Sequence record: NC_047884.1
DNA from: Escherichia phage saus132
Strand: one strand, 5' to 3'
DNA: 64,000 nt
Of the stretch, positions 29,123 through 43,777 are shown piece after piece (the first letter of the stretch is position 1; each line of letters begins with the position of its first letter). Under the pieces are notes generated by a model, which saw only the letters and a list, made by a program, of their open reading frames with translations, was not told the origin of the DNA and did not search any database. A program made the position numbers and the translations under genes.

Positions 29123-29198
29123 TGGTACTCCGACTTGGGATCGAACCAAGATTTGACGATTATCGGTCGCCTGTTCTAACCTGTTGAACTATCAGAGC
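29123..29198 (-). tRNA. tRNA-Ile (anticodon GAU), non-canonical C33
   Basis: encoded CCA; T-arm CTTGG-TTCGATC-CCAAG; anticodon loop CCGATAA; acceptor with G-U pairs. Confidence 0.5.
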
Positions 29199-29199
29199 A

Positions 29200-29493
29200 T
29201 TACATCATTTCATCCAAGTAAGAAGTATACTGGTATTTAGCTTCCCCAGTTTTATCTACTTCGACTTCTGTTCTAGGTACTTTTCGTACCAGACCGTGAA
29301 TCATCTTGTACTGAATAGACTTAGATGGTTCGTGATCTTTTGGAAAGACTTGTTTAACCGTTACTACTTTGAAGCCTTCACGAGGTGTTAATACAACAAC
29401 TTGATCACCTTCTTTAATTTTCCAGGACTCAGGAAATTCATAAGTGTAGCGTTGACCACCAGTTTGGAACACGACAGAAAGATAACGTTTCAT
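29200..29493 (-). CDS. hypothetical protein
   Basis: 97-aa ORF; promoter leader with GAGAGGG RBS. Confidence 0.5.
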   Translation of the reverse strand: MKRYLSVVFQTGGQRYTYEFPESWKIKEGDQVVVLTPREGFKVVTVKQVFPKDHEPSKSIQYKMIHGLVRKVPRTEVEVDKTGEAKYQYTSYLDEMM

Positions 29494-29567
29494 TTGGTTT
29501 CCCTCTCATTAATTTATATAAATATTATAACAAGAAATAAGAGAGAAGGCAAATGAATTTTTAAATT

Positions 29568-29642
29568 TGGTGCTCCCACCAGGAGTCGAACCCAGTTCAG
29601 ATGCTTACAAGGCAACTGCATCGCCAGCAATGCTTTAGGAGC
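29568..29642 (-). tRNA. tRNA-Thr (anticodon UGU)
   Basis: encoded CCA; acceptor GCTCCTA/TGGGAGC; anticodon loop CTTGTAA; T-loop TTCGACT. Confidence 0.6.
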
Positions 29643-29652
29643 AATAAACCCG

Positions 29653-29817
29653 TCATTTCAACGGGATTTCTTTTTCAAATACAGGAGACTTATCAGACAT
29701 TACTGTCATCGCCAACTGCTGAAGAAACTCGAAGGATAGTGCTAGGCGTTCGTCACCAAGCTCAATCTCTACACGTTTCTTTTGTTTGTCAACCTTTAGT
29801 TTCAGGTTATCAGCCAT
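29653..29817 (-). CDS. hypothetical small protein (54 aa)
   Basis: ATG ORF between tRNA genes; below track size cutoff. Confidence 0.3.
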   Translation of the reverse strand: MADNLKLKVDKQKKRVEIELGDERLALSFEFLQQLAMTVMSDKSPVFEKEIPLK

Positions 29818-30031
29818 CTTCGGATTCTAGTTGCTCGGCTACTGCTAGCCAGTCTGGTAAAAGAAACTTAGTACGAAACTCTTCATAAGGTTCTTCTGGA
29901 TAAAAGCTAAAATTTGCTTTCTCATCATTCAAGATAACAGAGCCGTCAGTTTGTTCGTATGCTAGGTATGTTTCTCCAATAACAATAACTCGTTTATTGT
30001 TACTTTTATCACGAAACTCAAAAACGTGCAT
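29810..30031 (-). CDS. hypothetical protein
   Basis: 73-aa ORF. Confidence 0.45.
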   Translation of the reverse strand: MHVFEFRDKSNNKRVIVIGETYLAYEQTDGSVILNDEKANFSFYPEEPYEEFRTKFLLPDWLAVAEQLESEDG

Positions 30032-30048
30032 AAATGTTTCCTTAAAGT

Positions 30049-30124
30049 TGGAGCGGCTAGAGGGAATCGAACCCTACTCAGCGGGGCTTGGAAGGCCTGC
30101 GGCACAACCCGTGTGCTTAACCGC
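30049..30124 (-). tRNA. tRNA-like gene, isotype uncertain (possibly Gly UCC); weak anticodon stem
   Basis: 76 nt; good acceptor and T-arm (TTCGATT) with CCA; only a 3-bp anticodon stem around loop CTTCCAA. Confidence 0.35.
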
Positions 30125-30132
30125 TTATTGTT

Positions 30133-30210
30133 TGGCAGGGGATATTGGATTTGAACCAATGATCTCGACTTCAAAGGCCGAAGCTTTAGGCCAAGCTAAG
30201 CTAATCCCCA
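30133..30210 (-). tRNA. tRNA-Gln (anticodon UUG)
   Basis: T-arm ATTGG-TTCAAAT-CCAAT; anticodon arm TCGGC-CTTTGAA-GTCGA; CCA encoded. Confidence 0.55.
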
Positions 30211-30216
30211 ATTGTT

Positions 30217-30292
30217 TGGCTGGAATGTCTAGGATCGAACTAGAAACCTACGGTGTCAGAAACCGTCGCTCTGCCAGTTGAGCTACACTCCA
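30217..30292 (-). tRNA. tRNA-Gln (anticodon CUG)
   Basis: T-arm TCTAG-TTCGATC-CTAGA; anticodon arm ACGGT-TTCTGAC-ACCGT; D-stem GCTC/GAGC. Confidence 0.6.
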
Positions 30293-30300
30293 ATAATTTT

Positions 30301-30501
30301 TTATTCTACAGGAACCGTGGCGATTGGATCAGGCTCTTCTAGACGTTTACCATTATGATCAACACGGATAATGCCACAACCTTCACAGATTACAACAGCA
30401 CCATAGCCTTCTTTAACTTCGGCTTCTGTAATCAGACCAGAAAGATCACCAGTATCTCTTCCCCACATATCAATAGAGCATTCTTTGCAGAAATCAGCCA
30501 T
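30301..30501 (-). CDS. small Cys-containing protein
   Basis: 66-aa ORF; CKEC...CEGC. Confidence 0.45.
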   Translation of the reverse strand: MADFCKECSIDMWGRDTGDLSGLITEAEVKEGYGAVVICEGCGIIRVDHNGKRLEEPDPIATVPVE

Positions 30502-30525
30502 ATTTTATTTCCTGTTTAAGTTAAT

Positions 30526-30600
30526 TGGTGCATCCTCAGGGAATCGAACCCCGATCGTAAAGTTCGTAGCTTTACATTCTTTCCGTTGAAATAAGGACGC
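30526..30600 (-). tRNA. tRNA-Arg (anticodon ACG)
   Basis: T-loop TTCGATT; anticodon arm TAAAG-CTACGAA-CTTTA; CCA encoded. Confidence 0.55.
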
Positions 30601-30606
30601 AATATT

Positions 30607-30683
30607 TGGGGTGGCTAGTGGAATTCGAATCCACATAGGCCTGATTCACAATCAGGATCATTAACCAATTATGATATAGCCAC
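30607..30683 (-). tRNA. tRNA-His (anticodon GUG)
   Basis: perfect acceptor GTGGCTA/TAGCCAC; T-arm GTGGA-TTCGAAT-TCCAC; anticodon loop TTGTGAA; discriminator C. Confidence 0.65.
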
Positions 30684-31063
30684 AATTGAATACTATTAGG
30701 GGATGATCAGTCCTCCATTTGGCCGTCTAAGGTACCAAAGTTAGTCATTCTGCGCACAGGTTTTTCTCCTGATTCTTTCTTGCGAATGCTCTCTAGTAAT
30801 ACTCAATTGTGGCGGCTCTCCGAAACTCTTCTACTCTAGCCTTAGCAGCTTACTCCCGAACGCATGTCGGGAAAGTCTTACTAAGAACATCAAATAGCAC
30901 CGTTACACTTTGAGCCATTGAATATCAAGAAGCAGAAGGACTTGAACCTTCATGAGATAGACCATTTATCTCAGCCTCGTTTTCGGGTATCTTATGAGGA
31001 GTGGATGTTCCCCTTACGCCCTTTAGGAAGCCCCGTCTACCGATTCCGGCATACTTCAAGATT

Positions 31064-31153
31064 TGGCAGAAGATAATGGAGTCGAACCATCACCGTATCA
31101 CTACAGCGGGCCGGTTTTCAAGACCGGTTACGTACCACTACGTCCTATCTTCT
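31064..31153 (-). tRNA. tRNA-Ser (anticodon UGA), long variable arm
   Basis: 90 nt; anticodon arm CCGGT-CTTGAAA-ACCGG; about 19-nt variable arm; perfect acceptor. Confidence 0.65.
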
Positions 31154-31380
31154 AGTATTTGTTCTACTTCTTTTCGAAGATCTTCTGGATTATCATGATA
31201 GGTTGTTTGCCATACATAAATAACTCCAGCATCACATGCTTTATCAAATATTTCTCGCTCAGGAAGTTTCATGCCCATTGCGTACTTGATATGAAACTCT
31301 AAAGCTTGCTTACTAGGGAATGTATGACGCAAGAAAAACTTATCATTAGCTAAATCCAACATCATAATCTTGACTTTCAT
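31138..31380 (-). CDS. hypothetical protein
   Basis: 80-aa ORF; 3' end overlaps tRNA-Ser 5' end. Confidence 0.45.
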   Translation of the reverse strand: MKVKIMMLDLANDKFFLRHTFPSKQALEFHIKYAMGMKLPEREIFDKACDAGVIYVWQTTYHDNPEDLRKEVEQILEDRT

Positions 31381-31401
31381 TTATATTCCCTATTAGTTGT
31401 T

Positions 31402-31477
31402 TGGTGGAAGAAGAGAGATTCGAACTCTCAAGCCTGCTTTAACAAGTCAGCCACTTTCCAAGCGGTTTTCGTCACCT
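31402..31477 (-). tRNA. tRNA-like remnant (canonical 3' half, 5' half does not pair)
   Basis: CCA, acceptor 3' strand and T-arm GAGAG-TTCGAAT-CTCTC present; Asn-like loop TTGTTAA with weak stem; no complementary 5' acceptor strand. Confidence 0.3.
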
Positions 31478-31653
31478 AATCGATTTGCTCTTCCGTAGAT
31501 CTCAGGATTAAATCATAAACTTCATTAGCGGATACTGGAAGTATGAGATTATACATCTTTTGGTCATACCTCTGACCATACTCTATAAACACATACTCTT
31601 TAGTCAATGTATTAACAGCTAACCAGATATCAGTTATAGGAGTTTTCATCATG
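31476..31653 (-). CDS. hypothetical small protein (59 aa)
   Basis: ATG ORF overlapping the 5' side of the tRNA-like element. Confidence 0.3.
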
Positions 31654-31668
31654 AGTTAATCCAATGTT

Positions 31669-31749
31669 TGGTAGGGATGGAGGGACTCGAACCCACACCC
31701 GAAGACTAGAACCTAAATCTAGCGCGTCTGCCAATTTCGCCACATCCCC
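31669..31749 (-). tRNA. tRNA-Leu (anticodon UAG)
   Basis: anticodon arm CTAGA-TTTAGGT-TCTAG; 9-nt variable region; CCA encoded. Confidence 0.5.
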
Positions 31750-31756
31750 ATTTTAT

Positions 31757-31975
31757 TTAGTTAGAAATAAATAGTAACCCTGCAACAATGGAACCTATGC
31801 CACTGAATACCATTATCAGCATAGCTTCTAAGCTGATAAAGCGGACGTTATATGGAGCGCCCCAAGAATAATCAGTAAAGAAAGTTTTCTTTTCTTTAGC
31901 TAAATCTTTAATAGTTCTAAAATAGATAGCTAGTGCTAAAGCTGCAAGAACTACAGAGGCTGCTAAGAATACCAT
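31757..31975 (-). CDS. small membrane protein
   Basis: 72 aa, two TM segments. Confidence 0.45.
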   Translation of the reverse strand: MVFLAASVVLAALALAIYFRTIKDLAKEKKTFFTDYSWGAPYNVRFISLEAMLIMVFSGIGSIVAGLLFISN

Positions 31976-31994
31976 ATTATTTCCTTAATTTGTT

Positions 31995-32070
31995 TGGTGG
32001 AGTCACTCAGAATTGAACTGAGTTCCACTGCTTGCAAGGCAGTAAGTTTAACCAAATAACCTATGACCCC
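31995..32070 (-). tRNA. tRNA-Ala (anticodon UGC)
   Basis: G3-U70 wobble in acceptor (GGGGTCA/TGACTCC); anticodon arm ACTGC-CTTGCAA-GCAGT; CCA encoded. Confidence 0.65.
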
Positions 32071-32075
32071 GAATT

Positions 32076-32154
32076 TGGTGGAGAATAACGGAATCGAACC
32101 GTTCTGATGTCCTCGGTGCAAGCGAGGTGTCCACTCCATGCAGACCCATTCCCC
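32076..32154 (-). tRNA. tRNA-Ala (anticodon UGC), second divergent copy
   Basis: G3-U70 in acceptor (GGGGAAT/ATTCTCC); anticodon arm CCTCG-CTTGCAC-CGAGG; 7-nt variable loop. Confidence 0.55.
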
Positions 32155-32509
32155 AAAATCTTTAAGTTTACTAAGGCTATTAGCTCGGTGTGCGTATTAC
32201 CCTCAGACATTATCCAGTAGAGGATAACCGCTCTTCACAAACCCGATACACTATTCAGTTGCCGCTGAATCTAGTGGACTAATCTAGAACTTCTCCCGAG
32301 TCGTAGGGATCGTGCTTTTTGGCAGCCAGTCCTAGGTCGAGCTAATACCTTAGTGAACTAAATTGATGGATATCAGACTAATTTTGCTACGGCGTTTATC
32401 CTGAGGATCTCTTTTTCGGTAGCTCTGCTAGTGTAGACGTCATACACCTGATATCTAGGCAGCTATTTTCACATCAATTTATATAAATATTATAACAAGA
32501 AATTAAGCA

Positions 32510-32863
32510 TTAAGCAAGTACATTTTTAGCGATTTCTTGTAGTTCCTTAACGTCGCTAACGAAAAGGTAATCAGAGCTTCCAGAGTGCATACTCTGCATA
32601 ACCACACCACCATCCGGTGCATCTTCTTTCAAAGTAATACCTAACCAGAACTTGGCAAAACTAGGTGTTACCTCACCTTGACTTGCCTTGAACACATCGC
32701 CTTCTGTGATCTCTTGACCAGTGGAGAGTCCCATGTATGGTACGTTCAGATCAATATCTTTGTAGAACTCAGCTAGATCTTGCTCGAAATCCCAACCTTT
32801 AGAGATAGCGAACTCCATTGTTACATGACCGAAATAGCCTTGAACCTTGCTTGATAATTGCAT
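32510..32863 (-). CDS. hypothetical protein
   Basis: start moved to ATG after AAGGA RBS (track start is TTG). Confidence 0.5.
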   Translation of the reverse strand: MQLSSKVQGYFGHVTMEFAISKGWDFEQDLAEFYKDIDLNVPYMGLSTGQEITEGDVFKASQGEVTPSFAKFWLGITLKEDAPDGGVVMQSMHSGSSDYLFVSDVKELQEIAKNVLA

Positions 32864-32888
32864 TTGCAATTCCTTATTTTGAGTTAAT

Positions 32889-32962
32889 TGGTACTCGGTG
32901 ATAGAATCGAACTATCGCAACCGCCGTGTAAAGACGGGGTTCTCCCATTAAACTAACCGAGC
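32889..32962 (-). tRNA. tRNA-Val (anticodon UAC)
   Basis: T-arm GATAG-TTCGATT-CTATC; anticodon loop TTTACAC. Confidence 0.55.
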
Positions 32963-33095
32963 AAAAGACGTCCTATAATATAGGCTTCAACTACAAATTC
33001 ACAGAAACCTGCTAAAAACATACCTATTGTAAAATCGGCAGAGAATACATAGGAATCTTTTATTTTCTGCTTCATTAAGTAAAACCAGATAGTCA

Positions 33096-33413
33096 TTAAA
33101 ATCTCTCCATTCTAAAGCCAATGAAGTAAGGTGCATTACATGGAACATGCTTAAGATCTTTAAGAGTAATTTTACGTCCTAAGCGTCGTTCCATACAAGT
33201 GAAACATAGAACAATATCTTTGGGCTGCTCTTTTCTTATCTGATCCCAGACCCAATCTTCAACCATACACATTTCATGGTATTGTTCACAGTCTCGACAA
33301 TAGTGACACTGATGTTCTGGTACTTTTTGATTTTTAATACACAGTTCAGTAAAGCGTTTTCCGGCTCTGCCAGACATTTCTGATATTGTTTCTAGAACTT
33401 TGTTAATATTCAT
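33096..33413 (-). CDS. Cys-rich zinc-finger-like protein
   Basis: 105 aa; HQCHYCRDCEQYHEMC and CFTC motifs. Confidence 0.5.
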   Translation of the reverse strand: MNINKVLETISEMSGRAGKRFTELCIKNQKVPEHQCHYCRDCEQYHEMCMVEDWVWDQIRKEQPKDIVLCFTCMERRLGRKITLKDLKHVPCNAPYFIGFRMERF

Positions 33414-33430
33414 AACAAATTCCTTTAAAT

Positions 33431-33509
33431 TGGTAGACCGCCTGGGACTCGAACCCAGAACCTTCCGGTTAAAAGCCGGGTGCTGCTAAACCAATTGAGC
33501 TAGCGATCT
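33431..33509 (-). tRNA. tRNA-Lys (anticodon UUU)
   Basis: T-arm CTGGG-TTCGAGT-CCCAG; anticodon loop CTTTTAA. Confidence 0.55.
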
Positions 33510-33511
33510 AT

Positions 33512-33676
33512 TTAGTACATATATACTTCTTTAATAGAGTAGACTTTTAAGTAAGGATGATTAATACCAAATTCCGCCATCACTTCGTTTTCATCTTTAC
33601 CGTAATGGGCTAGTGGATACTTCTTACGATCTTTGCTAGAACGTAGATCACTTACTTTTAAGCGAAATAATTTCAT
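33512..33676 (-). CDS. hypothetical small protein (54 aa)
   Basis: ATG ORF between two tRNA genes. Confidence 0.3.
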   Translation of the reverse strand: MKLFRLKVSDLRSSKDRKKYPLAHYGKDENEVMAEFGINHPYLKVYSIKEVYMY

Positions 33677-33697
33677 TTCGAAATCCTTCTATTAAAT

Positions 33698-33775
33698 TGG
33701 AAGCGGGTGTAGGAATCGAACCTACCTCTTTCTAGCTTATGAGACTAGCGATCTCTACCAGAGATCTAACCCGCA
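33698..33775 (-). tRNA. tRNA-Met-type (anticodon CAU), mismatched 1-72 pair
   Basis: anticodon arm CTAGT-CTCATAA-GCTAG; T-loop TTCGATT; U1/U72 mismatch. Confidence 0.55.
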
Positions 33776-33781
33776 ATTGTT

Positions 33782-33859
33782 TGGTCTCCGTGGGAGGATT
33801 TGAACCCCCGACCCTACCGCCCCAAACGGAACGCTCTGGCCAAACTGAGCTACACGGAG
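33782..33859 (-). tRNA. tRNA-Pro (anticodon UGG)
   Basis: perfect acceptor CTCCGTG/CACGGAG; anticodon loop TTTGGGG; D-stem GCTC/GAGC. Confidence 0.6.
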
Positions 33860-34336
33860 AATATTATCTTTTTAACCATAGTAAGGTTATACCTAACATG
33901 GTAAATCCAGTACCCAGCCCAATACTTTTTTCTATGAAATTGAAGGTATCAGTATTGACTGCGGTAATTAGTATAGGTATAGACCATAGTACCATGAATA
34001 CTTGAGCTATCTTATATTTCACTTTGCTTTCCTTCTTAACATTTTATAAGATATATTATACAGAGAATTAAGCAAAGTAGCAAATGAATTTTTAATAAAT
34101 TTACTTATTGCGTAGGCCACCTGGAGGGTTCAAGCCCCACGGCTGACAAAGAAGTTTGCGAGACTTCTCTTAAACGCCAGAATAGACCCGCCGATCTATC
34201 GGAACCTACTCAATAAGTAAACTTTCATTTACTTACACCTACCTGGTCGGGAGGATTTTCAGCGACTAGAACCGGCCGGAAACTCATCGCCTTGTTTATC
34301 TAGGAGTCCGTTCTCTAGGAAGCAGAAACCTAAATT

Positions 34337-34410
34337 TGGTGCGGTCGGAGGGAATCGAACCCTCAACTTCTGGTTGGCAACCAAAAATTATACCTTTTAA
34401 CTACGAACGC
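34337..34410 (-). tRNA. tRNA-Gly (anticodon GCC)
   Basis: T-arm GAGGG-TTCGATT-CCCTC; anticodon arm TTTGG-TTGCCAA-CCAGA. Confidence 0.6.
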
Positions 34411-34608
34411 ATAATAAGTCAATCTAGGCAGGACTTGAACCTGCTATCACTTGTGCGGATTTACGAGAACCATTCTTTCACTCGAATCGAACGAGCTTCT
34501 ACCCTCGGCAAGCTGGTGTCCCCTCTCCACCACGCTAGAATGTTTGATAAAGAGTCCGGTGTAGCAATCCGTAAGGGTGCACCTACTGTAGCCTTTACTC
34601 TTTAAATT

Positions 34609-34684
34609 TGGTACACCCACTAGGACTTGAACCTAGAACCCTCCGCTTAAGAGGCGGTAGCTCTAACCATTGAGCTATGGATGT
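34609..34684 (-). tRNA. tRNA-Lys (anticodon CUU)
   Basis: T-arm CTAGG-TTCAAGT-CCTAG; anticodon loop CTCTTAA; D-stem GCTC/GAGC. Confidence 0.55.
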
Positions 34685-34690
34685 ATTATT

Positions 34691-34767
34691 TGGCGCGACC
34701 GATGGGATTCGAACCCACATTCTCTCCCGTGACAGGGGAGTACCATTACCAAGCCAGCCCCGATCGC
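34691..34767 (-). tRNA. tRNA-Asp (anticodon GUC)
   Basis: anticodon arm CTCCC-CTGTCAC-GGGAG; discriminator G; CCA encoded. Confidence 0.6.
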
Positions 34768-34776
34768 ATAATTTGT

Positions 34777-34962
34777 TTACTCAGCTTTGAGTTTTTCGAT
34801 AGCTTCCTCAACCTCTTTTAGAGCTTCACGACGTGCATTCTGTTGCTGCATATCTTGAATTAATGTCAGTTTTTGGTTTTCAATTTCTTGATCCCAAACC
34901 TTAATATTATTAATCAGACTATCACGATCAGCTTCTAGTCGAGCAATTGCACGAGTTGTCAT
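34777..34962 (-). CDS. hypothetical coiled-coil protein
   Basis: 61-aa ORF. Confidence 0.4.
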   Translation of the reverse strand: MTTRAIARLEADRDSLINNIKVWDQEIENQKLTLIQDMQQQNARREALKEVEEAIEKLKAE

Positions 34963-35065
34963 ATCTATTTCCTCAGTTGTTAATGAAAAATGGTATCTGT
35001 GACTGAATTCGATATCAGCAATGATAGCTGGTTGGCTACCGGTTTACTTAACTCTACACAGAATT

Positions 35066-35143
35066 TGGCGGTTCCTGCTGGATTCGAACCAGCAACCCTC
35101 AACTTAACAAGATGCCGCTCTAACCAATTAGAGCTAAGGAACC
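35066..35143 (-). tRNA. tRNA-Asn (anticodon GUU), weak anticodon stem
   Basis: perfect acceptor GGTTCCT/AGGAACC; T-arm GCTGG-TTCGAAT-CCAGC; loop TTGTTAA; two stem mismatches. Confidence 0.5.
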
Positions 35144-35638
35144 ATATAAGTCAGAACTAGAGTTAATACGTTCTAGATATTTACTAAGATCCCTAGAATT
35201 TATACTAAACCACTCATGTTCTTTTAAGTCTTTGAAATATTGGTGAATTTGTTTTTCACCTTTTCGTTTGTCAAACCAAAACGACCAATGCTCTAGTTTA
35301 TAGTCCCTATAAGGACTATAAGTTTGATACTGAGCTAATCTCTCTTTTGGATTTTGACTCATACCTATTTTATACTGGTTTTTCCATGCAGGATTACTGA
35401 TACAGTATACAAAACCTTCAGAAATAGGAAGCTTATTTTCCTGTTTAAACTTTATAAAGGAAAGTGCGGCAAGTTTCCTCGAATACAGAGTATTTGTATT
35501 CTTTTTGGTATTACCACTGGTTCCTGAAAGATTTATATACTCTTCCATAAATCTTTGGATTAGTTCTGTGGTTATGTAGAAAGGCTCATTAGTAACAATG
35601 CCTTTCTCTACCAAGCTGTCAAAAACTTTTGTATGCAC
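35120..35638 (-). CDS. T5orf172/GIY-YIG-like domain protein
   Basis: 172 aa; GFVYCISNP...YKIGMSQNPKERLAQY resembles the T5orf172 core. Confidence 0.5.
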   Translation of the reverse strand: MHTKVFDSLVEKGIVTNEPFYITTELIQRFMEEYINLSGTSGNTKKNTNTLYSRKLAALSFIKFKQENKLPISEGFVYCISNPAWKNQYKIGMSQNPKERLAQYQTYSPYRDYKLEHWSFWFDKRKGEKQIHQYFKDLKEHEWFSINSRDLSKYLERINSSSDLYGSLALIG

Positions 35639-35659
35639 TACTTCTTTCCTTTAGTAATT

Positions 35660-35734
35660 TGGAGCATCCTGTTGGAATTGAACCAACCTAGACGATTTTG
35701 CAGACCGTCACCTAAGCCACTCGGACAAGGATGC
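35660..35734 (-). tRNA. tRNA-Cys (anticodon GCA)
   Basis: perfect acceptor GCATCCT/AGGATGC; anticodon loop CTGCAAA; T-loop TTCAATT. Confidence 0.65.
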
Positions 35735-35737
35735 AAA

Positions 35738-36010
35738 TTAATCTACTTCACACATATCATCATAGCCACAAGTTGGGCATTCCCAATGACATTCGTCATG
35801 CTCACCGCATTGAGCACATTCATAAATCTTTGGCTTTTCAACTTCTTCTAGATTAATAAATTCTAGATCATCGAAGTTACCAATGGATCTGGCATAGTAA
35901 CCATCGCCTGCGTCATAACCTGATTTACCACACTCACACATCTTAAACTCACGCAGATGTGTGAAGATATGTTCAGAGCCACAACACTTAAATTTAACTA
36001 ACTTTTTCAT
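35738..36010 (-). CDS. zinc-ribbon protein
   Basis: 90 aa; several CxxC pairs. Confidence 0.5.
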   Translation of the reverse strand: MKKLVKFKCCGSEHIFTHLREFKMCECGKSGYDAGDGYYARSIGNFDDLEFINLEEVEKPKIYECAQCGEHDECHWECPTCGYDDMCEVD

Positions 36011-36059
36011 TTGCTTCTCCAGTTCAATTTATGTAATAATTATACAGAACTTTAAGCGG

Positions 36060-36347
36060 TTAAGCAACTACATTTTTCAGAAATATGATGCCTTTCTTTT
36101 TCTTCTTATACTTCCACGTTAACGGGTTCTGTCGATTATGAACGCTTGAGATCTTTGTCTCGTCAAAGTTCTTCAATACCATGTAATCACAGGCCAACTG
36201 TTCTAGTGGAATGTGATCTCCGTCAAAAGCGTAAACGTAAGGCTGTTGACTGGCACGATAATGATAGACTTTGTTAATTCTGCGTTTCAGTGACTTATCC
36301 GCACAGTAAATAAAGAAGTTTTCAGGATGCATCAGCATCTCCTTCAA
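36060..36347 (-). CDS. hypothetical protein
   Basis: 95-aa ORF; track start is TTG, a likelier ATG lies 9 nt in. Confidence 0.45.
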   Translation of the reverse strand: MKEMLMHPENFFIYCADKSLKRRINKVYHYRASQQPYVYAFDGDHIPLEQLACDYMVLKNFDETKISSVHNRQNPLTWKYKKKKKGIIFLKNVVA

Positions 36348-36349
36348 AT

Positions 36350-36424
36350 TGGTGCACCCTGTTCGAATTGAACGAACCTCTCAAGCTCTTCAGGCAAGCG
36401 CTAATCCATCTCAGCTAAAGGTGC
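36350..36424 (-). tRNA. tRNA-Phe (anticodon GAA), anticodon stem with two U-U mismatches
   Basis: T-arm GTTCG-TTCAATT-CGAAC; loop CTGAAGA; CCA encoded. Confidence 0.45.
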
Positions 36425-36430
36425 AAATAT

Positions 36431-36507
36431 TGGCAAACCTACTAGGACTCGAACCTAGACCGTACGGTTTTGGAGACCGACATGCTGTCCAGTAACACTC
36501 TAGGAAT
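36431..36507 (-). tRNA. tRNA-Trp (anticodon CCA)
   Basis: T-arm CTAGG-TTCGAGT-CCTAG; anticodon arm TCGGT-CTCCAAA-ACCGT; two U-U mismatches in acceptor. Confidence 0.5.
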
Positions 36508-36515
36508 GCAGAAAT

Positions 36516-36592
36516 TGGCGTCCTGTGCGGGGATCGAACCCGCAAATCCTACCTTGAAAGGGTAGTGACTTTACCAGTTTGTCTAACAGGAC
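36516..36592 (-). tRNA. tRNA-Glu (anticodon UUC)
   Basis: perfect acceptor; T-arm GCGGG-TTCGATC-CCCGC; anticodon arm CTACC-CTTTCAA-GGTAG. Confidence 0.65.
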
Positions 36593-36599
36593 TTAAATT

Positions 36600-36690
36600 T
36601 GGTGTTGGATGATGGAGTCGAACCACCCGAGACCCTTCCGAGTCGGCAGATTTACAGTCTACTTCGCTACCTCTACGATACTAATCCAAC
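36600..36690 (-). tRNA. tRNA-Tyr (anticodon GUA), long variable arm
   Basis: 91 nt; perfect acceptor GTTGGAT/ATCCAAC; anticodon loop CTGTAAA; about 18-nt variable arm. Confidence 0.6.
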
Positions 36691-36879
36691 ATATTTGAAT
36701 GAAAAGTAAGTCGGTTAAACTCAAGGTGGAATATTTCAGGATTTCCTGACTTTACCCCTAAAAGCAACTCGCTTAATTACTTCTCATTCAGATATGTTTC
36801 CAAATTAGATAAATATTATATCAAGTTTTAAGGCACTGAGCAAGTCAAATTTTAAAGAACTTGCTCAGTGCTGTATCAG

Positions 36880-37173
36880 TTAATCAAATGAAGGAGTGAC
36901 TTTCAAAGTGAATGGAAGTTCGAATACCTCTTCACCTTCATCAGTAACAGTGACTACTCGACCCTCTAGCTTATTCATGCTGATTTCAACATCAGCCGTA
37001 GCATCAGGAGCCATACCAGCCTCAATACATTGAGCTTTGATCTCTGGAAGAAGTTCTACATTGTAGAAATAAAGCCACTCGATCTCACCTTCCCAACCAC
37101 CCCAGGATTTACATACTGAGCTTTCAATACCAGTTGCTGCAAAACGTTTTAACATTCTGATTCCTCTCATCAA
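36880..37173 (-). CDS. hypothetical protein
   Basis: 97-aa ORF. Confidence 0.45.
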   Translation of the reverse strand: MMRGIRMLKRFAATGIESSVCKSWGGWEGEIEWLYFYNVELLPEIKAQCIEAGMAPDATADVEISMNKLEGRVVTVTDEGEEVFELPFTLKVTPSFD

Positions 37174-37244
37174 CTTATATAACTATTATAGCAGAAATCT
37201 TAAGCAAAAAGCAAGTACATTTTTAAAATTTCTGCTTGGAGGAG

Positions 37245-37517
37245 TTAAACTCCTGATTCTTCAGCCAGATCAAGCCCAACCAATGTGATTGCCATAATAG
37301 CCGCGCCATGTTCTTTCTCTCCTAGCTCTTTGGCTTGAGTGAGAATATTGAGGAATTGCTTTTGAAAATCTGCAACTTCTTCTGTCATGCCTGCTTCAGC
37401 AATAATTCCTTTCAGCATAAAGCGTTGTGCCGTAATTTCAGGATTAGCCATTTGTTTTCTCCAGTTATTTAGAATGTAAGCCAAACTTAGGATCATAGCG
37501 ATCGTAAGTAGTACCAT
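37245..37517 (-). CDS. hypothetical protein
   Basis: 90-aa ORF. Confidence 0.45.
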   Translation of the reverse strand: MVLLTIAMILSLAYILNNWRKQMANPEITAQRFMLKGIIAEAGMTEEVADFQKQFLNILTQAKELGEKEHGAAIMAITLVGLDLAEESGV

Positions 37518-37602
37518 TAGTTGAAGCCTTGATGCTATGAAAACGACAATACATAAATTTACGCAGTGCTTTCTTAATAGCTTTCATTTTATTTCCTTAA
37601 TT

Positions 37603-37679
37603 TGGTAGGGGTGGTGGGATTCGAACCCACAAAACCTGAATTTTAAGTCCAGTACCTATGCCAATTCGATTACACCCCC
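37603..37679 (-). tRNA. tRNA-Leu (anticodon UAA), short variable loop
   Basis: T-arm GTGGG-TTCGAAT-CCCAC; anticodon loop CTTAAAA; 77 nt. Confidence 0.45.
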
Positions 37680-37687
37680 ATGTAATC

Positions 37688-38041
37688 TTAGCGAATCTCT
37701 AAACCCTGGAAATATCGAGGGAATGGAGAGCCAACTTCAAAATTGATGCCCCAGTTAAGTTCAACGAGTTCAGATTTATTAAGATCTAGGCCATTACCTT
37801 CAAAGATATAGCCGTAAACCGCAGGGAACATAGCTGCTAGATCTTCCATATCGGAATGAGCATTGTGTTCTTCACGTAACTGCTCAAACTCTTCAAAGAA
37901 CTTTTCTAGGAAGAACTCAGGTACGATGAACGTTACCACATCAGTAGAATCATCAGTACGATACACCGTAGCTTGGAACAAGCCAACACCTAAAAGGTTT
38001 ATTGCCGGAGTAGTAAAAATATCCATCTTAACCTCGCTCAA
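37688..38041 (-). CDS. hypothetical protein
   Basis: 117-aa ORF. Confidence 0.5.
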   Translation of the reverse strand: MSEVKMDIFTTPAINLLGVGLFQATVYRTDDSTDVVTFIVPEFFLEKFFEEFEQLREEHNAHSDMEDLAAMFPAVYGYIFEGNGLDLNKSELVELNWGINFEVGSPFPRYFQGLEIR

Positions 38042-38213
38042 TGTCTAGAGAAATACCACATTCAGGATTAATACCAGAACCATTACAATATGTACAAACG
38101 TATGTATTATACCGTGTATCACCGGGTTCAGCATCGTTCCACTCACCTACTCCGAAGCATTTTGGGCAGGCACACTCTTCTAGCTCTTGCTTGAGTTCTT
38201 GAAATTTGGACAT
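38028..38213 (-). CDS. small zinc-finger protein
   Basis: 61 aa; CPKCFGVGEW and CTYCNGSG motifs. Confidence 0.4.
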   Translation of the reverse strand: MSKFQELKQELEECACPKCFGVGEWNDAEPGDTRYNTYVCTYCNGSGINPECGISLDIERG

Positions 38214-38221
38214 ATAGTCTC

Positions 38222-38410
38222 CTAGTTAATTACTTTTGAGGCTTCTAAAGCATTGACGTAGTAAACGTCTTCTACTTTATACATATAGTCTACTACTTTG
38301 TCCATAGCATGTAGTTCAGATGTAGCCTTTACTAGTCTGTACCCTTGTTTAAACTCGTCCGAATGTTCTCTATCTTGTGCAAATTTAACAGAAACTATGA
38401 ATAATTCCAT
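38222..38410 (-). CDS. hypothetical small protein
   Basis: 62-aa ORF. Confidence 0.4.
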   Translation of the reverse strand: MELFIVSVKFAQDREHSDEFKQGYRLVKATSELHAMDKVVDYMYKVEDVYYVNALEASKVIN

Positions 38411-38429
38411 TAGTTGTCCTTATTTAATT

Positions 38430-38507
38430 TGGTGGCTCCCGGAGGATTCGAACCTACCTACCTTTCGCTTATGAGGCGACGGCTCATACCAAATGAGCTT
38501 GAGAACC
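38430..38507 (-). tRNA. tRNA-Met-type (anticodon CAU), third CAU copy
   Basis: T-loop TTCGAAT; anticodon arm GTCGC-CTCATAA-GCGAA; CCA encoded. Confidence 0.5.
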
Positions 38508-38512
38508 AAATT

Positions 38513-38606
38513 TGGAGGAAGATGCCAGATTCGAACTGGCACACCGTGTCTCCACAGCTACTGGCTGTTTAGCAAACAGCTCCCTTACCTTTAGGGTTAA
38601 TCTTCC
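38513..38606 (-). tRNA. tRNA-Ser (anticodon GCU), long variable arm
   Basis: 94 nt; perfect acceptor GGAAGAT/ATCTTCC; anticodon arm GCTGT-TTGCTAA-ACAGC. Confidence 0.6.
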
Positions 38607-38626
38607 AAATTTATGAATATATTATA

Positions 38627-42881: not shown

Positions 42882-43777
42882 TTTAGGTATTTTTAAGAAC
42901 TCTTATAAAAGCTCTTAAAGATACCCGACGGTAGGTAGGGTCAGCCCCCTCAGATTAAGCTCTGCAGCCCTTCCGTCAGACAATATCTTCCAGTTTAAGT
43001 CAGGGTGACTTTGTGGTTATGTTCTCCGTATGTGAAGAACTCGGTTAGGCTTAGGTCATGACTCCCAGCCTACTGCTGCCGCTCAACAGGAATTATCGCG
43101 AATTACCTGTACTATTGGGCACCATTAGTGACATCTCTCATGTCAGCGTTTCCCACTCTCATATTCACGCGGTCTGTTAGAATCGCACCTCCGATTTTCG
43201 ATGCGAAGCTGGATGCCTAGTCTCAGGTTAAACGGGGCACACACTAGGCAGTGATCCCGAGTTCCGAGTTTGGTTGAGGCCGTCAGGTTTCCTCGTGGTT
43301 TAGCTGTTTCGATTCTAACCTAATACTGATCAGGTGGCGTACCTCCTGAACTGTCATAGTATGTACTCCAGCAGCGAATGCTTATCCGGTATAAGCCCGA
43401 GTTATCTGATTCTTTCCGACCGCAGGATTCGAACCTGCATCTTCCACCAGTTACGGTTTGATATTACCGTTTATACTAGGACGGCAGTGTTATCACATAA
43501 GTCAGTTCGACACCCCACTAACATAAACTAGAGAAGAGTTTACGAGATTTCGGGACAGCTCCCGAGTTTTCCGCAGATTTTCAGTTCCCTATCAATAGCA
43601 ATAAGCGTTAGCTCGTAGCCTCTCTCAGAGTACTTACTAGTCTCCAACTCACCGACTCTATTCAGTGGAATAGCTATCCTAGTAGGAATCACTAAACTCA
43701 CTCAGCGTAATCGGCTCGCTGTTCTCTAATTTATGAATCTATTATACAGAATTTTGAGGCGTTTAGCAAATCAATTT

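What the first reader, a model, noticed from the sequence alone, without database searches (positions are those of the whole stretch)
30049..34500. Degenerate tRNA-like elements interspersed among bona fide tRNAs
30049-30124 has a weak anticodon stem. 31402-31477 has a canonical 3' half (T-arm, acceptor strand, CCA) but no pairing 5' strand and overlaps a small ORF. 34420-34500 holds two overlapping T-arm-like hairpins with no complete cloverleaf. These may be pseudogenes, processing signals or tRNA-like decoys.
Basis: seen in the sequence. Interest (0 to 1): 0.45.

Follow-up and report, generated by a model that had tools for sequence, protein, structure and literature searches.

The report
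Atypical T5-phage tRNAs and tRNA-like RNA2
Two of the three 'degenerate' elements are real but oddly shaped phage tRNA genes (Gly-UCC and Ser-GGA) that standard tRNA finders miss, and the third is this phage's copy of T5 'RNA2', an already annotated tRNA-shaped RNA of unknown function whose anticodon loop is replaced by a conserved structured insert.

Summary
The window is the left 64 kb of T5-like Salmonella/E. coli phage chee130_1 (MF431736, Epseptimavirus). All three elements lie on the minus strand inside its tRNA cluster, and each corresponds to a feature annotated in phage T5.

- **30049-30124:** tRNA-Gly(UCC), the T5 tRNAG1 type. The weak anticodon stem is real. This allele has an A·C mismatch at a pair that covaries (A-U/C-G) in every relative examined.
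- **31402-31494, not 31402-31477:** a class II tRNA-Ser(GGA). The "missing" 5' acceptor strand lies at 31488-31494, because the gene is 93 nt with a long variable arm.
- **34418-34541:** the orthologue of T5 misc_RNA "RNA2, tRNA-like stable RNA with unknown functions" (89% identity). Comparative analysis gives 97.8% of cells paired and 22 of 31 pairs with compensatory changes. The fold is a full cloverleaf whose anticodon loop carries a ~55-nt insert with a second T-loop hairpin. It cannot decode.

None of the three looks like a decaying pseudogene at family level. ARAGORN defaults and the Rfam tRNA model miss all three, and many of the genome records examined leave them unannotated. RNA2's function remains unknown. 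The entities are already known from T5, so novelty is low. The covariation-backed RNA2 fold and a separate 55-nt motif shared by three phage families are the useful extras.

The parts
30049..30124 (-). tRNA-Gly(UCC), T5 tRNAG1 type, 76 nt with encoded CCA. Anticodon TCC at 30092-30090. The anticodon arm is 6 bp with a bulged C (30083), and this allele has an A·C mismatch at 30098/30084. The T stem is effectively 4 bp.
   Evidence: Annotated tRNA-Gly in MF431736. 97.4% identical to T5 tRNAG1(UCC). ARAGORN finds it only at -ps90. Family covariation gives 95.3% paired and 11 of 22 pairs compensatory, and the window is the only sequence that breaks the 27:41 pair of the alignment.
31402..31494 (-). 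Class II tRNA-Ser(GGA), 93 nt with encoded CCA. Acceptor 31494-31488 / 31412-31406; anticodon GGA 31459-31457; variable arm 31446-31433; T arm 31429-31413; discriminator A at 31405.
   Evidence: Annotated tRNA-Ser in MF431736. ARAGORN finds it at -ps. Syntenic with T5 tRNAS2(GGA). Family alignment and covariation give 94.8% paired, 11 of 25 compensatory and an acceptor stem 100% paired.
34418..34541 (-). Orthologue of T5 'RNA2' (tRNA-like stable RNA): a cloverleaf with a structured insert in place of the anticodon loop.
   Evidence: 89% identical to T5 32959-33083. RNAalifold recovers the four cloverleaf helices. CM R1 scores it 145 bits. Covariation gives 97.8% paired and 22 of 31 compensatory.
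34535..34541 (-). RNA2 acceptor stem, 5' strand ATTCTAG. It pairs with 34421-34427 (CTAGATT); this allele has one U·U mismatch.
   Evidence: Three entirely different but complementary acceptor stems occur in relatives (T5-like, Pantoea phage AAS21, IMG/VR contig L036).
34514..34532 (-). RNA2 D arm: TGGTG / CACCA around a G-rich loop GAGAGGGGA.
   Evidence: 4 of 5 pairs have compensatory changes.
34449..34513 (-). RNA2 anticodon-type stem (GCTTG 34513-34509 with CAAGT 34453-34449) enclosing a 55-nt insert. The insert contains helix GGGT/ATCC (34504-34501 / 34460-34457) and an invariant CTCGTAA..TCCGCA stretch.
   Evidence: The long-range stem has 4 of 5 pairs compensatory, and the inner helix shows C-G<->U-A covariation at one pair.
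34480..34496 (-). Second, internal T-loop hairpin of RNA2: (G)CTCG TTCGATT CGAG(T).
   Evidence: It covaries as CTCG/CGAG <-> CTTG/CAAG <-> ACGG/CCGT.
34428..34444 (-). RNA2 true T arm GCAGG TTCAAGT CCTGC, adjacent to the 3' acceptor strand 34421-34427. Discriminator G at 34420, followed by AC rather than CCA.
30917..31060 (-). Homologue of T5 'RNA1' (annotated as a tRNA-like stable RNA), with an orphan T arm at 30935-30951.
   Evidence: (80.7% identity).
34991..35063 (-). Homologue of T5 'RNA3' (annotated as a putative tRNA-like RNA), 73 nt ending in ACCA, directly 3' of tRNA-Asn.
   Evidence: 97% identity.

Best explanation
The window is a T5-like phage, and the three loci are its copies of three features annotated in phage T5.

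- Element 1 is tRNA-Gly(UCC), a conserved non-canonical architecture: a 1-nt connector before the D stem, a 6-bp anticodon arm with a bulged pyrimidine, and a 4-bp T stem.
- Element 2 is a class II tRNA-Ser(GGA) with a 3-bp D stem and a long variable arm.
- Element 3 is RNA2.

Inferred mechanism. All three are made as parts of long early minus-strand transcripts of the tRNA cluster. Because each carries an acceptor stem stacked on a T arm, each is cut out by the host tRNA-processing enzymes: RNase P at the 5' end and 3' trimming at the other. Gly and Ser most likely act as decoding tRNAs.

RNA2 has every cloverleaf helix, but its 7-nt anticodon loop is replaced by a ~55-nt structured module containing a 4-bp helix, a second T-loop hairpin and an invariant CUCGUAA..UCCGCA stretch. 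It therefore cannot read a codon. Its most likely role is a stable tRNA mimic that engages some tRNA-binding host or phage factor.

Shown here: orthology to the T5 features, the secondary structures by covariation, strand and context, and phage specificity. Inferred only: processing, stability in this particular phage, whether the Gly and Ser alleles are charged, and the biological role of RNA2.
For: - **Identity of the window.** It is 100% identical to MF431736, a T5-like Epseptimavirus, which annotates 30049-30124 as tRNA-Gly and 31402-31494 as tRNA-Ser.
- **T5 annotation.** The T5 RefSeq record annotates tRNAG1(UCC) with a note that the anticodon swap gives an 'effective amber suppressor'. 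It annotates tRNAS2(GGA) with a note that the swap 'does not convert' it. It lists RNA2 as 'tRNA-like stable RNA with unknown functions'. blastn maps elements 1 and 3 onto the first and last of these; element 2 matches tRNAS2 by synteny, shared GGA anticodon and alignment.
- **Gly family.** 9 distinct sequences come from Demerecviridae, Vequintavirinae, a Pseudomonas phage and metagenomic viral contigs. 95.3% of cells pair, 11 of 22 pairs are compensatory, 0 of 500 shuffles reach this, and slid controls drop to 29-54%.
- **Ser family.** 8 distinct sequences give 94.8% paired and 11 of 25 compensatory pairs. The variable arm and acceptor stem are 100% paired.
- **RNA2.** RNAalifold on a plain MAFFT alignment recovers the acceptor, D, anticodon-type and T helices. 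On 18 distinct sequences, 97.8% of cells pair, 22 of 31 pairs are compensatory, 0 of 500 shuffles reach this, and slid controls give 28-45%.
- **RNA2 acceptor stems and 3' ends.** Three completely different complementary acceptor stems occur. The AAS21 version is followed by an encoded ACCA; the alignment of the L036 version stops at TCC, so a full CCA there was not confirmed.
- **Cloverleaf framework.** Genuine tRNAs match the RNA2 covariance model end to end at 24-32 bits once the insert is deleted.
- **Strand specificity.** Orphan T arms occur only on the tRNA strand, against 0.77 expected by chance.
- **Phage specificity.** No conserved-core match was found in 185,579 bacterial and archaeal genomes.
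Against: - No expression or processing data exist for this phage. 'Stable RNA' rests on the T5 depositors' annotation, and I could not read the primary papers.
- Single-sequence folding prefers a different structure for RNA2: MFE -32.4 kcal/mol against -25.3 for the model and -29.6 when the model pairs are enforced.
- The A5 alignment was fitted to the model, which favours it. One search is the independent check.
- T5-like RNA2 copies end in G-AC(A/U), not CCA. Their 3' maturation and any charging are therefore unclear.
- The Gly allele here breaks a conserved pair. The Ser allele has A73 and G7·U66, and T5 Ser2 failed the suppressor test, so full translational function of either is unproven.
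- T5 mutants lacking the region that holds Ser2 and RNA2 are viable on laboratory hosts (PMC11464382). Any function is therefore conditional.
Confidence: 0.85

Rival explanations
1. Elements 1 and 2 are tRNA pseudogenes in this phage: decaying copies that are still transcribed but no longer charged or used by the ribosome.
For: - The window's Gly allele is the only one of 9 family members with a non-pair (A·C) at a covarying anticodon-stem position.
- The window's Ser allele has discriminator A73 where six of the other seven alleles have G73 (one has U73), plus G7·U66.
- The T5 depositors note that Ser2 with a swapped anticodon is not a suppressor.
- Default ARAGORN and the Rfam tRNA model reject both elements.
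Against: - Both families retain their cloverleaves through many compensatory changes across distant phages.
- The exact window Gly allele is fixed at >=99% identity in about 40 phage genomes.
- The anticodon loops (CTTCCAA and TTGGAAA, the latter with one exception, CTCGGAA in phiR2-01) and the encoded CCA ends are conserved across the families examined.
- T5 Gly1, two substitutions away, is annotated as an effective suppressor.
- A single A·C next to a bulge still leaves 5 G-C pairs in the arm.
Confidence: 0.15
2. Element 3 (RNA2) is an intron-containing or insertion-disrupted tRNA gene. The ~50-nt insert is either spliced out to give a normal tRNA, or is junk left by a mobile element.
For: The insert sits exactly where tRNA introns sit, inside the anticodon loop. 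It is flanked by a normal 5-bp anticodon-type stem and a 4-5-nt variable loop. Homing endonuclease genes populate T5 tRNA clusters.
Against: - The insert is conserved and its two helices covary across subfamilies, so it is not junk.
- At ~55 nt it is far too short for a group I intron, and no Rfam intron or ribozyme family matches it.
- Removing it leaves a loop such as CCGAGCA, with C at position 33 and a variable 'anticodon' (GAG, TAG or TTG among relatives).
- T5 annotates the stable species as 125 nt, which is the unspliced length.
Confidence: 0.04
3. The tRNA-like elements are only processing punctuation: RNase P/RNase E landing pads that separate neighbouring RNAs, with no function for the excised RNA itself.
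For: They lie inside polycistronic tRNA/ORF units, and an acceptor stem plus T arm is the known RNase P recognition unit (established knowledge). The region is dispensable for growth on laboratory hosts.
Against: - RNA2 is flanked within 7-70 nt by bona fide tRNAs that already provide cleavage sites.
- Punctuation needs only the acceptor stem and T arm. The D arm, the long-range stem, the inner helix and the second T-loop hairpin all covary, and a 13-nt stretch of the insert is invariant except at one position.
- The same RNA occurs in three different neighbourhoods: T5, this window and AAS21.
Confidence: 0.1
4. Element 3 is protein-coding (the annotated plus-strand ORF 34453-34605) or a tmRNA-like tagging RNA.
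For: MF431736 annotates a hypothetical protein on the plus strand at 34453-34605. A short frame GUG AAA GAA UGG UUC UCG UAA can be read in the insert.
Against: - The ORF matches no PHROG family.
- The substitutions are compensatory for minus-strand RNA helices.
- Insert lengths differ by non-multiples of 3 between relatives.
- ARAGORN's tmRNA search finds nothing, and no Rfam tmRNA hit is found.
Confidence: 0.01

Closest known systems
Phage T5 tRNAG1(UCC) (NC_005859 29177-29252)
   Same: Syntenic position, 74 of 76 identical bases, the same acceptor stem, T arm, anticodon loop and encoded CCA, and the same irregular architecture.
   Different: Two substitutions. U->C turns the A-U pair of the anticodon stem into A·C. 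U->C in the D stem turns G·U into G-C.
Phage T5 tRNAS2(GGA) (NC_005859 30942-31035)
   Same: The same locus between tRNA-Leu(UAG) and tRNA-Ser(UGA), the same GGA anticodon, the same class II layout, and the same GGAA.AG/C.UUCC acceptor stem and 'CAAA' connector.
   Different: Sequence divergence is high enough that blastn finds no match. The variable arm and T stem are entirely different but compensated. The window allele has A73, where six of the other seven alleles, T5 included, have G73. The upstream gene is a 58-aa phrog_11405 protein rather than the HNH endonuclease hegC.
Phage T5 RNA2 (misc_RNA T5s06, 'tRNA-like stable RNA with unknown functions')
   Same: 89% identity over 125 nt, with the same helices and the same insert.
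   Different: Different neighbours. T5 has ORF T5.067 upstream; here the upstream neighbours are tRNA-Lys(CUU) plus a 55-nt motif, with tRNA-Gly(GCC) downstream. The window has a 5-bp D stem and a U·U mismatch in the acceptor stem.
Phage T4 species 1 and species 2 RNAs (rnaC, rnaD)
   Same: Small stable RNAs of unknown function encoded inside a phage tRNA cluster on the tRNA strand. rnaC carries a T arm near its 3' end.
   Different: No detectable homology: the RNA2 covariance model does not hit them. They have different lengths and folds.
tmRNA and bacterial Y-RNA-like YrlA (tRNA mimics; from general knowledge)
   Same: A tRNA-like acceptor/T-arm module joined to a non-tRNA domain, giving non-decoding tRNA mimicry.
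   Different: RNA2 keeps the D arm and an anticodon-type stem. It has no tag reading frame and no Ro-binding stem. No Rfam family matches it, and ARAGORN finds no tmRNA.

Membership tests
Canonical tRNA (Rfam RF00005 / ARAGORN default) | Scores above the curated threshold of a general tRNA model | tested here: not met
   None of the three reaches the RF00005 gathering score. ARAGORN default calls none of them. Elements 1 and 2 appear only at lowered thresholds. Element 3 scores 12.5 bits against RF00005.
Functional tRNA (elements 1 and 2) | Four-arm cloverleaf maintained by compensatory substitutions, a 7-nt anticodon loop with U33, and a 3' CCA | tested here: met
   (95% of cells paired, 11 compensatory pairs in each family). 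The loops are CTTCCAA and TTGGAAA, and CCA is encoded.
Functional tRNA (elements 1 and 2) | Aminoacylation and use in translation | not testable with these tools
   The only evidence is the T5 depositors' notes. The Gly1 anticodon swap gives an effective amber suppressor; the Ser2 swap does not.
Class II tRNA-Ser (element 2) | Long base-paired variable arm, 3-bp D stem, and G1-C72/G2-C71/A3-U70 with G73 (E. coli SerRS identity set, from general knowledge) | tested here: inconclusive
   The variable arm (5 bp here, 100% paired in the family), the 3-bp D stem and the G1-C72, G2-C71 and A3-U70 pairs are all present. The discriminator is A73 in this allele, against G73 in six of the other seven (one has U73).
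T5 RNA2 family | Sequence homology to T5 32959-33083 and the shared fold (cloverleaf plus anticodon-loop insert with a second T-loop hairpin) | tested here: met
   89% identity, 145 bits against model R1, and all six helices present.
T5 RNA2 family | Accumulates as a discrete stable RNA in infected cells | not testable with these tools
   Stated only in the T5 GenBank annotation. The primary papers are not in the library.
Decoding tRNA (element 3) | 7-nt anticodon loop presenting a triplet | tested here: not met
   The loop is replaced by a 55-nt structured insert. The residual loop residues vary and lack U33.
tmRNA | tRNA-like domain plus a tag reading frame with a conserved frame and stop codon | tested here: not met
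   No ARAGORN tmRNA call, no Rfam tmRNA hit, and the insert length varies out of frame among relatives.
Group I intron-containing tRNA | Intron of 200 nt or more with a P1-P9 core in the anticodon loop | tested here: not met
   The insert is 55 nt, and no Rfam intron family matches it even at E<=10.

The most novel reading that the evidence does not exclude
RNA2 and its sibling tRNA-like RNAs of T5-like phages are dedicated tRNA mimics that protect the phage. They are cut out by the tRNA-processing machinery and then titrate or misdirect a host factor that recognises the tRNA body. Candidates are tRNA-targeting immune nucleases or acceptor-end-modifying toxins. In this reading the conserved insert (second T loop plus invariant CUCGUAA..UCCGCA) is the functional bait. 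The widely conserved irregular Gly(UCC) architecture, with its bulged anticodon arm, could likewise be an adaptation that escapes anticodon-arm-directed nucleases.
Probability: 0.15. Interest if true: 0.7.

Novelty: already known. Interest (0 to 1): 0.3.

Why it matters
Phage tRNA clusters are now known to counter tRNA-cleaving bacterial immunity. T5 tRNA-Lys counters PARIS (PMC11464382) and T5 tRNA-Tyr counters retron Eco7 (PMC11555353, abstract seen).

The non-tRNA stable RNAs in the same T5 cluster have stayed functionally blank since they were annotated. This work shows that RNA2 is under strong structural selection across Demerecviridae. It also provides a concrete fold, a covariance model and exact boundaries, which make deletion, pull-down and probing experiments straightforward.

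There is a practical point as well. Two conserved tRNA families (T5-type Gly-UCC and Ser-GGA) were not called by ARAGORN defaults or the Rfam tRNA model here, and they are unannotated in many of the phage records examined. tRNA counts and codon-coverage analyses of T5-like and some other phages are therefore likely to be slightly too low.

Tried and rejected
- **Rfam.** The search at gathering threshold and at E<=10 on the cluster and on 34411-34608 alone found no family for RNA2. Elements 1 and 2 gave only sub-threshold tRNA-Sec hits.
- **Protein-anchored search.** An IMG/VR search using the neighbouring 172-aa ORF returned only 8 near-identical loci. I replaced it with DNA-pattern scans, and most hits of the first pattern were chance matches.
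- **Literature.** Searches for T5 tRNA-like or stable RNAs found no primary description. The T5 genome paper is not held. The eLife phage-tRNA paper does not discuss T5.
- **T4 rnaC/rnaD.** The RNA2 model does not detect them, so homology is rejected.
- **tmRNA-like tag frame in the insert.** Rejected, because insert lengths change frame between relatives.
- **Spliced-tRNA reading.** Rejected, because the residual loop is non-canonical and variable.
- **Remnant of T5 hegC.** The 58-aa ORF overlapping element 2 shows no similarity to hegC.
- **Bacterial origin.** Rejected for RNA2 and for the 55-nt motif at the stringency of exact core patterns.
- **CGAG/CUCG pairing inside the insert.** Rejected, because relatives carry an uncompensated G->U change.

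Full report
**What the window is.** The 6.2-kb stretch around the finding is 100% identical to MF431736.1, 'Bacteriophage T5-like chee130_1' (Demerecviridae, Epseptimavirus), at the same coordinates. It is nearly identical to Salmonella phage Seafire, and several hundred T5-like genomes match it. ARAGORN finds 28 tRNA genes between 29041 and 42881, all on the minus strand. The Rfam tRNA model finds 28, a slightly different set. The three elements of the finding lie within this cluster on the same strand.

**Observation check.** I counted T-arm hairpins (5-bp stem, loop TTCRANY) over the whole window.
- There are 30 on the minus strand and none on the plus strand, against 0.77 expected from shuffles.
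- Five lie outside ARAGORN tRNAs, at 30935-51, 31413-29, 34428-44, 34480-96 and 43422-38.
- A sixth with a 4-bp stem lies at 30060-76.

They belong to a slightly larger set of tRNA-like elements.

**Element 1 (30049-30124).**
- *Annotation and orthology.* The deposited record annotates it as tRNA-Gly. It differs at two positions from T5 tRNAG1(UCC). The T5 depositors note for that gene that swapping the anticodon 'converts this tRNA into effective amber suppressor'.
- *Detection.* ARAGORN reports it only at 90% of its normal threshold. Rfam's tRNA model misses it; the best match is tRNA-Sec at 28.5 bits, below threshold.
- *Alleles at this locus.* Three kinds of tRNA-Gly(UCC) occupy the position in different T5-like phages: a canonical one, the T5 type, and a phiLLS type. 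The phiLLS type shares the T5-type acceptor stem and T arm but has regular D and anticodon arms.
- *Distribution.* T5-type genes also occur in Aeromonas, Klebsiella and Pseudomonas phages, in a Vequintavirinae myovirus and in metagenomic viral contigs. They are almost always unannotated there.
- *Structure.* On nine distinct sequences the cloverleaf is strongly supported. 95.3% of cells pair, 11 of 22 pairs have compensatory changes, none of 500 shuffles reaches this, and slid controls give 29-54%.
- *Unusual features.* The family has one nucleotide between the acceptor and D stems. Its anticodon arm is 6 bp interrupted by a bulged pyrimidine, and position 49:65 never pairs.
- *The window allele.* The pair next to the bulge is A-U or C-G in every relative. 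In the window it is A·C (30098/30084). 'Weak anticodon stem' is therefore correct and specific to this allele. That exact allele is carried by about 40 phage genomes, which argues against a strongly deleterious effect.

**Element 2 (31402-31494).**
Its 5' strand GGAAGAG (31494-31488) pairs with TTCTTCC (31412-31406). The extra length is a base-paired variable arm, so this is a class II tRNA with anticodon GGA.
- *Orthology.* It occupies the same slot as T5 tRNAS2(GGA), between tRNA-Leu(UAG) and tRNA-Ser(UGA). It is too diverged for blastn to link the two.
- *Detection.* Homologues at 85-96% identity exist in many T5-like phages, including Pectobacterium phage My1 of another subfamily. Among the eight alleles tested, ARAGORN defaults recognise only the T5 and My1 versions.
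- *Structure.* The eight-sequence alignment gives 94.8% paired cells and 11 of 25 compensatory pairs, with the acceptor stem and variable arm 100% paired. The D stem also covaries (TCG/CGA versus TAG/CTA, read directly).
- *The window allele.* It has G7·U66 and discriminator A73. Six of the other seven alleles examined have G73 and one has U73.
- *Caveat on function.* The T5 note says Ser2 'does not convert' into a suppressor. SerRS does not read the anticodon (established knowledge), so this is a genuine caveat about the translational competence of the lineage.
- *ORF overlap.* The overlapping small ORF (31476-31652) is a full-length member of phrog_11405 and unrelated to T5 hegC. A 3'-end overlap of an upstream ORF with a tRNA 5' end is also seen in T5.

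**Element 3 (34420-34500).**
- *Identity.* blastn maps 34418-34548 onto T5 32960-33089 at 89% identity. That is T5 misc_RNA 'RNA2, tRNA-like stable RNA with unknown functions'.
- *Sequences compared.* I collected homologues from T5, Tequintavirus and Epseptimavirus phages, Yersinia phiR2-01, Pectobacterium My1, Pantoea AAS21 and IMG/VR contigs.
- *Independent fold.* RNAalifold on a plain MAFFT alignment predicted an acceptor stem, a D arm, a long-range stem in the anticodon-stem position and a T arm.
- *Model-based fold.* A covariance model built with two further helices retrieved 32 homologues at 93-156 bits. It also matched genuine tRNAs end to end at 24-32 bits with the insert deleted. The framework is therefore a true cloverleaf.
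- *Covariation.* On 18 distinct sequences 97.8% of cells pair and 22 of 31 pairs show compensatory changes. None of 500 shuffles reaches this, and slid controls fall to 28-45%.
- *Acceptor stems.* The acceptor stem exists in three wholly different complementary versions. AAS21 has AGACAAT/ATTGTCT followed by ACCA. L036 has TACGGGG/TCCCGTA followed by TCC, where its alignment ends. T5-like copies have G-AC instead of CCA.
- *Coordinates in the window.*
  - Acceptor stem: 34541-34535 with 34427-34421.
  - D arm: 34532-34514.
  - Anticodon-type stem: 34513-34509 with 34453-34449.
  - Inner helix: 34504-34501 with 34460-34457.
  - Internal T-loop hairpin: 34495-34481.
  - Variable loop: 34448-34445.
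  - T arm: 34444-34428.
- *What RNA2 is not.* The 7-nt anticodon loop is replaced by a 55-nt module, so RNA2 cannot decode. A spliced-tRNA reading fails because the residual loop lacks U33 and its 'anticodon' varies. A tmRNA-like reading fails because insert lengths change frame among relatives. The annotated plus-strand ORF over it has no family.
- *Databases.* No Rfam family matches. The conserved core is absent from 185,579 bacterial and archaeal genomes.

**Mechanism.**
- *Shown.* These are conserved, structured minus-strand RNAs embedded in the tRNA transcription units. Promoter-like sites equivalent to T5 P11 and P13a lie at 29552-29524 and 34083-34055.
- *Inferred from established tRNA biology.* The acceptor stem plus T arm makes each a substrate for RNase P and 3' trimming, which would release discrete stable species.
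- *Gly(UCC) and Ser(GGA).* They most likely decode GGA/GGG and UCC/UCU. The confidence is moderate for these particular alleles.
- *RNA2.* It is most likely a tRNA mimic whose conserved insert is the functional part.
- *Constraint on any role.* T5 mutants deleted for 30661-38625 or 29191-32442 are viable, and they differ from wild type only under PARIS defence because they lose tRNA-Lys (PMC11464382). Any role for RNA2 or Ser2 is therefore conditional.

**Comparison with what is known, and novelty.** All three elements correspond to features already annotated in phage T5, so I rate the finding 'already known'. The closest analogues outside T5 are the T4 species 1 and 2 RNAs in the T4 tRNA cluster. 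They are analogous in context but not homologous. This analysis adds the following:
- A covariation-backed secondary structure and a covariance model for RNA2.
- Evidence that T5-type Gly(UCC) and Ser(GGA) are conserved non-canonical tRNA families that ARAGORN defaults and the Rfam tRNA model do not call and that many records leave unannotated.
- The identification of the specific lesions in this phage's alleles.

**Verdict.** Interest is modest (0.3). The open question of what the stable tRNA-like RNAs of T5 do is old and now timely, but nothing here is unexpected for a T5-like genome.

Noticed in passing
window 34549-34603 (minus strand), between tRNA-Lys(CUU) and RNA2: A 55-nt structured motif (AAAGAGU..GGCUACAGUAG..GCUACACCGGAC..ACUCUUU) sits 4-5 nt after the CCA end of tRNA-Lys(CUU). 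The same motif occurs in same-strand tRNA clusters of three phage families: Demerecviridae, Ackermannviridae and Schitoviridae. It has a 7-bp closing stem showing four different Watson-Crick pairs at one position, a second covarying helix and a largely invariant core. 100% of cells pair in 10 sequences. It has no Rfam match and no copy in bacterial genomes. It may be an undescribed RNA motif.
   Followed up: partly
window 30810-31060, 32235-32347, 34109-34209, 34991-35063, 42882-43540 (minus strand): Homologues of the other T5 'stable RNAs of unknown function' are present. They are RNAI (ends in GCCGCCA), RNA1 (tRNA-like, orphan T arm at 30935-51), part of RNA2H, RNAIV, RNA3 (73 nt, ends in ACCA) and parts of RNAX.
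   Followed up: partly
window 43413-43486 (minus strand): A tRNA-like element lies inside the RNAX homologue. The Rfam tRNA model scores it 29.3 bits, right at threshold. ARAGORN finds it only at a lowered threshold and with an odd anticodon loop. It has a perfect T arm GCAGG TTCGAAT CCTGC.
   Followed up: no
window 32076-32154 (minus strand): The second of two tandem tRNA-Ala(UGC) genes is called by ARAGORN but missed by the Rfam tRNA model (tRNA-Sec 23.6 bits only). It is the homologue of T5 tRNA-Ala(UGC), which is annotated as an effective suppressor. It is another atypical but apparently functional phage tRNA.
   Followed up: no
window 34453-34605 (plus strand): The hypothetical protein annotated in MF431736 (P1301_0063) lies antisense to RNA2 and the 55-nt motif and matches no PHROG family. 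It is probably a spurious gene call.
   Followed up: partly
L097:3112-3234 (IMG/VR contig 3300000418_000016): An unrelated metagenomic viral contig holds a 123-nt element with the same layout as RNA2: an acceptor stem, a T arm, an anticodon-type stem and a ~60-nt insert. The match to the RNA2 model is weak (24.3 bits). This suggests the 'tRNA with a big anticodon-loop insert' design may be more widespread.
   Followed up: no
window 29505-29568, 32472-32539, 34023-34101 and others (minus strand): Repeated ~60-80-nt blocks match the annotated T5 early promoters (P11, P13a/b and others), with TTGC.. / TATAAT boxes. They divide the tRNA cluster into several transcription units.
   Followed up: no
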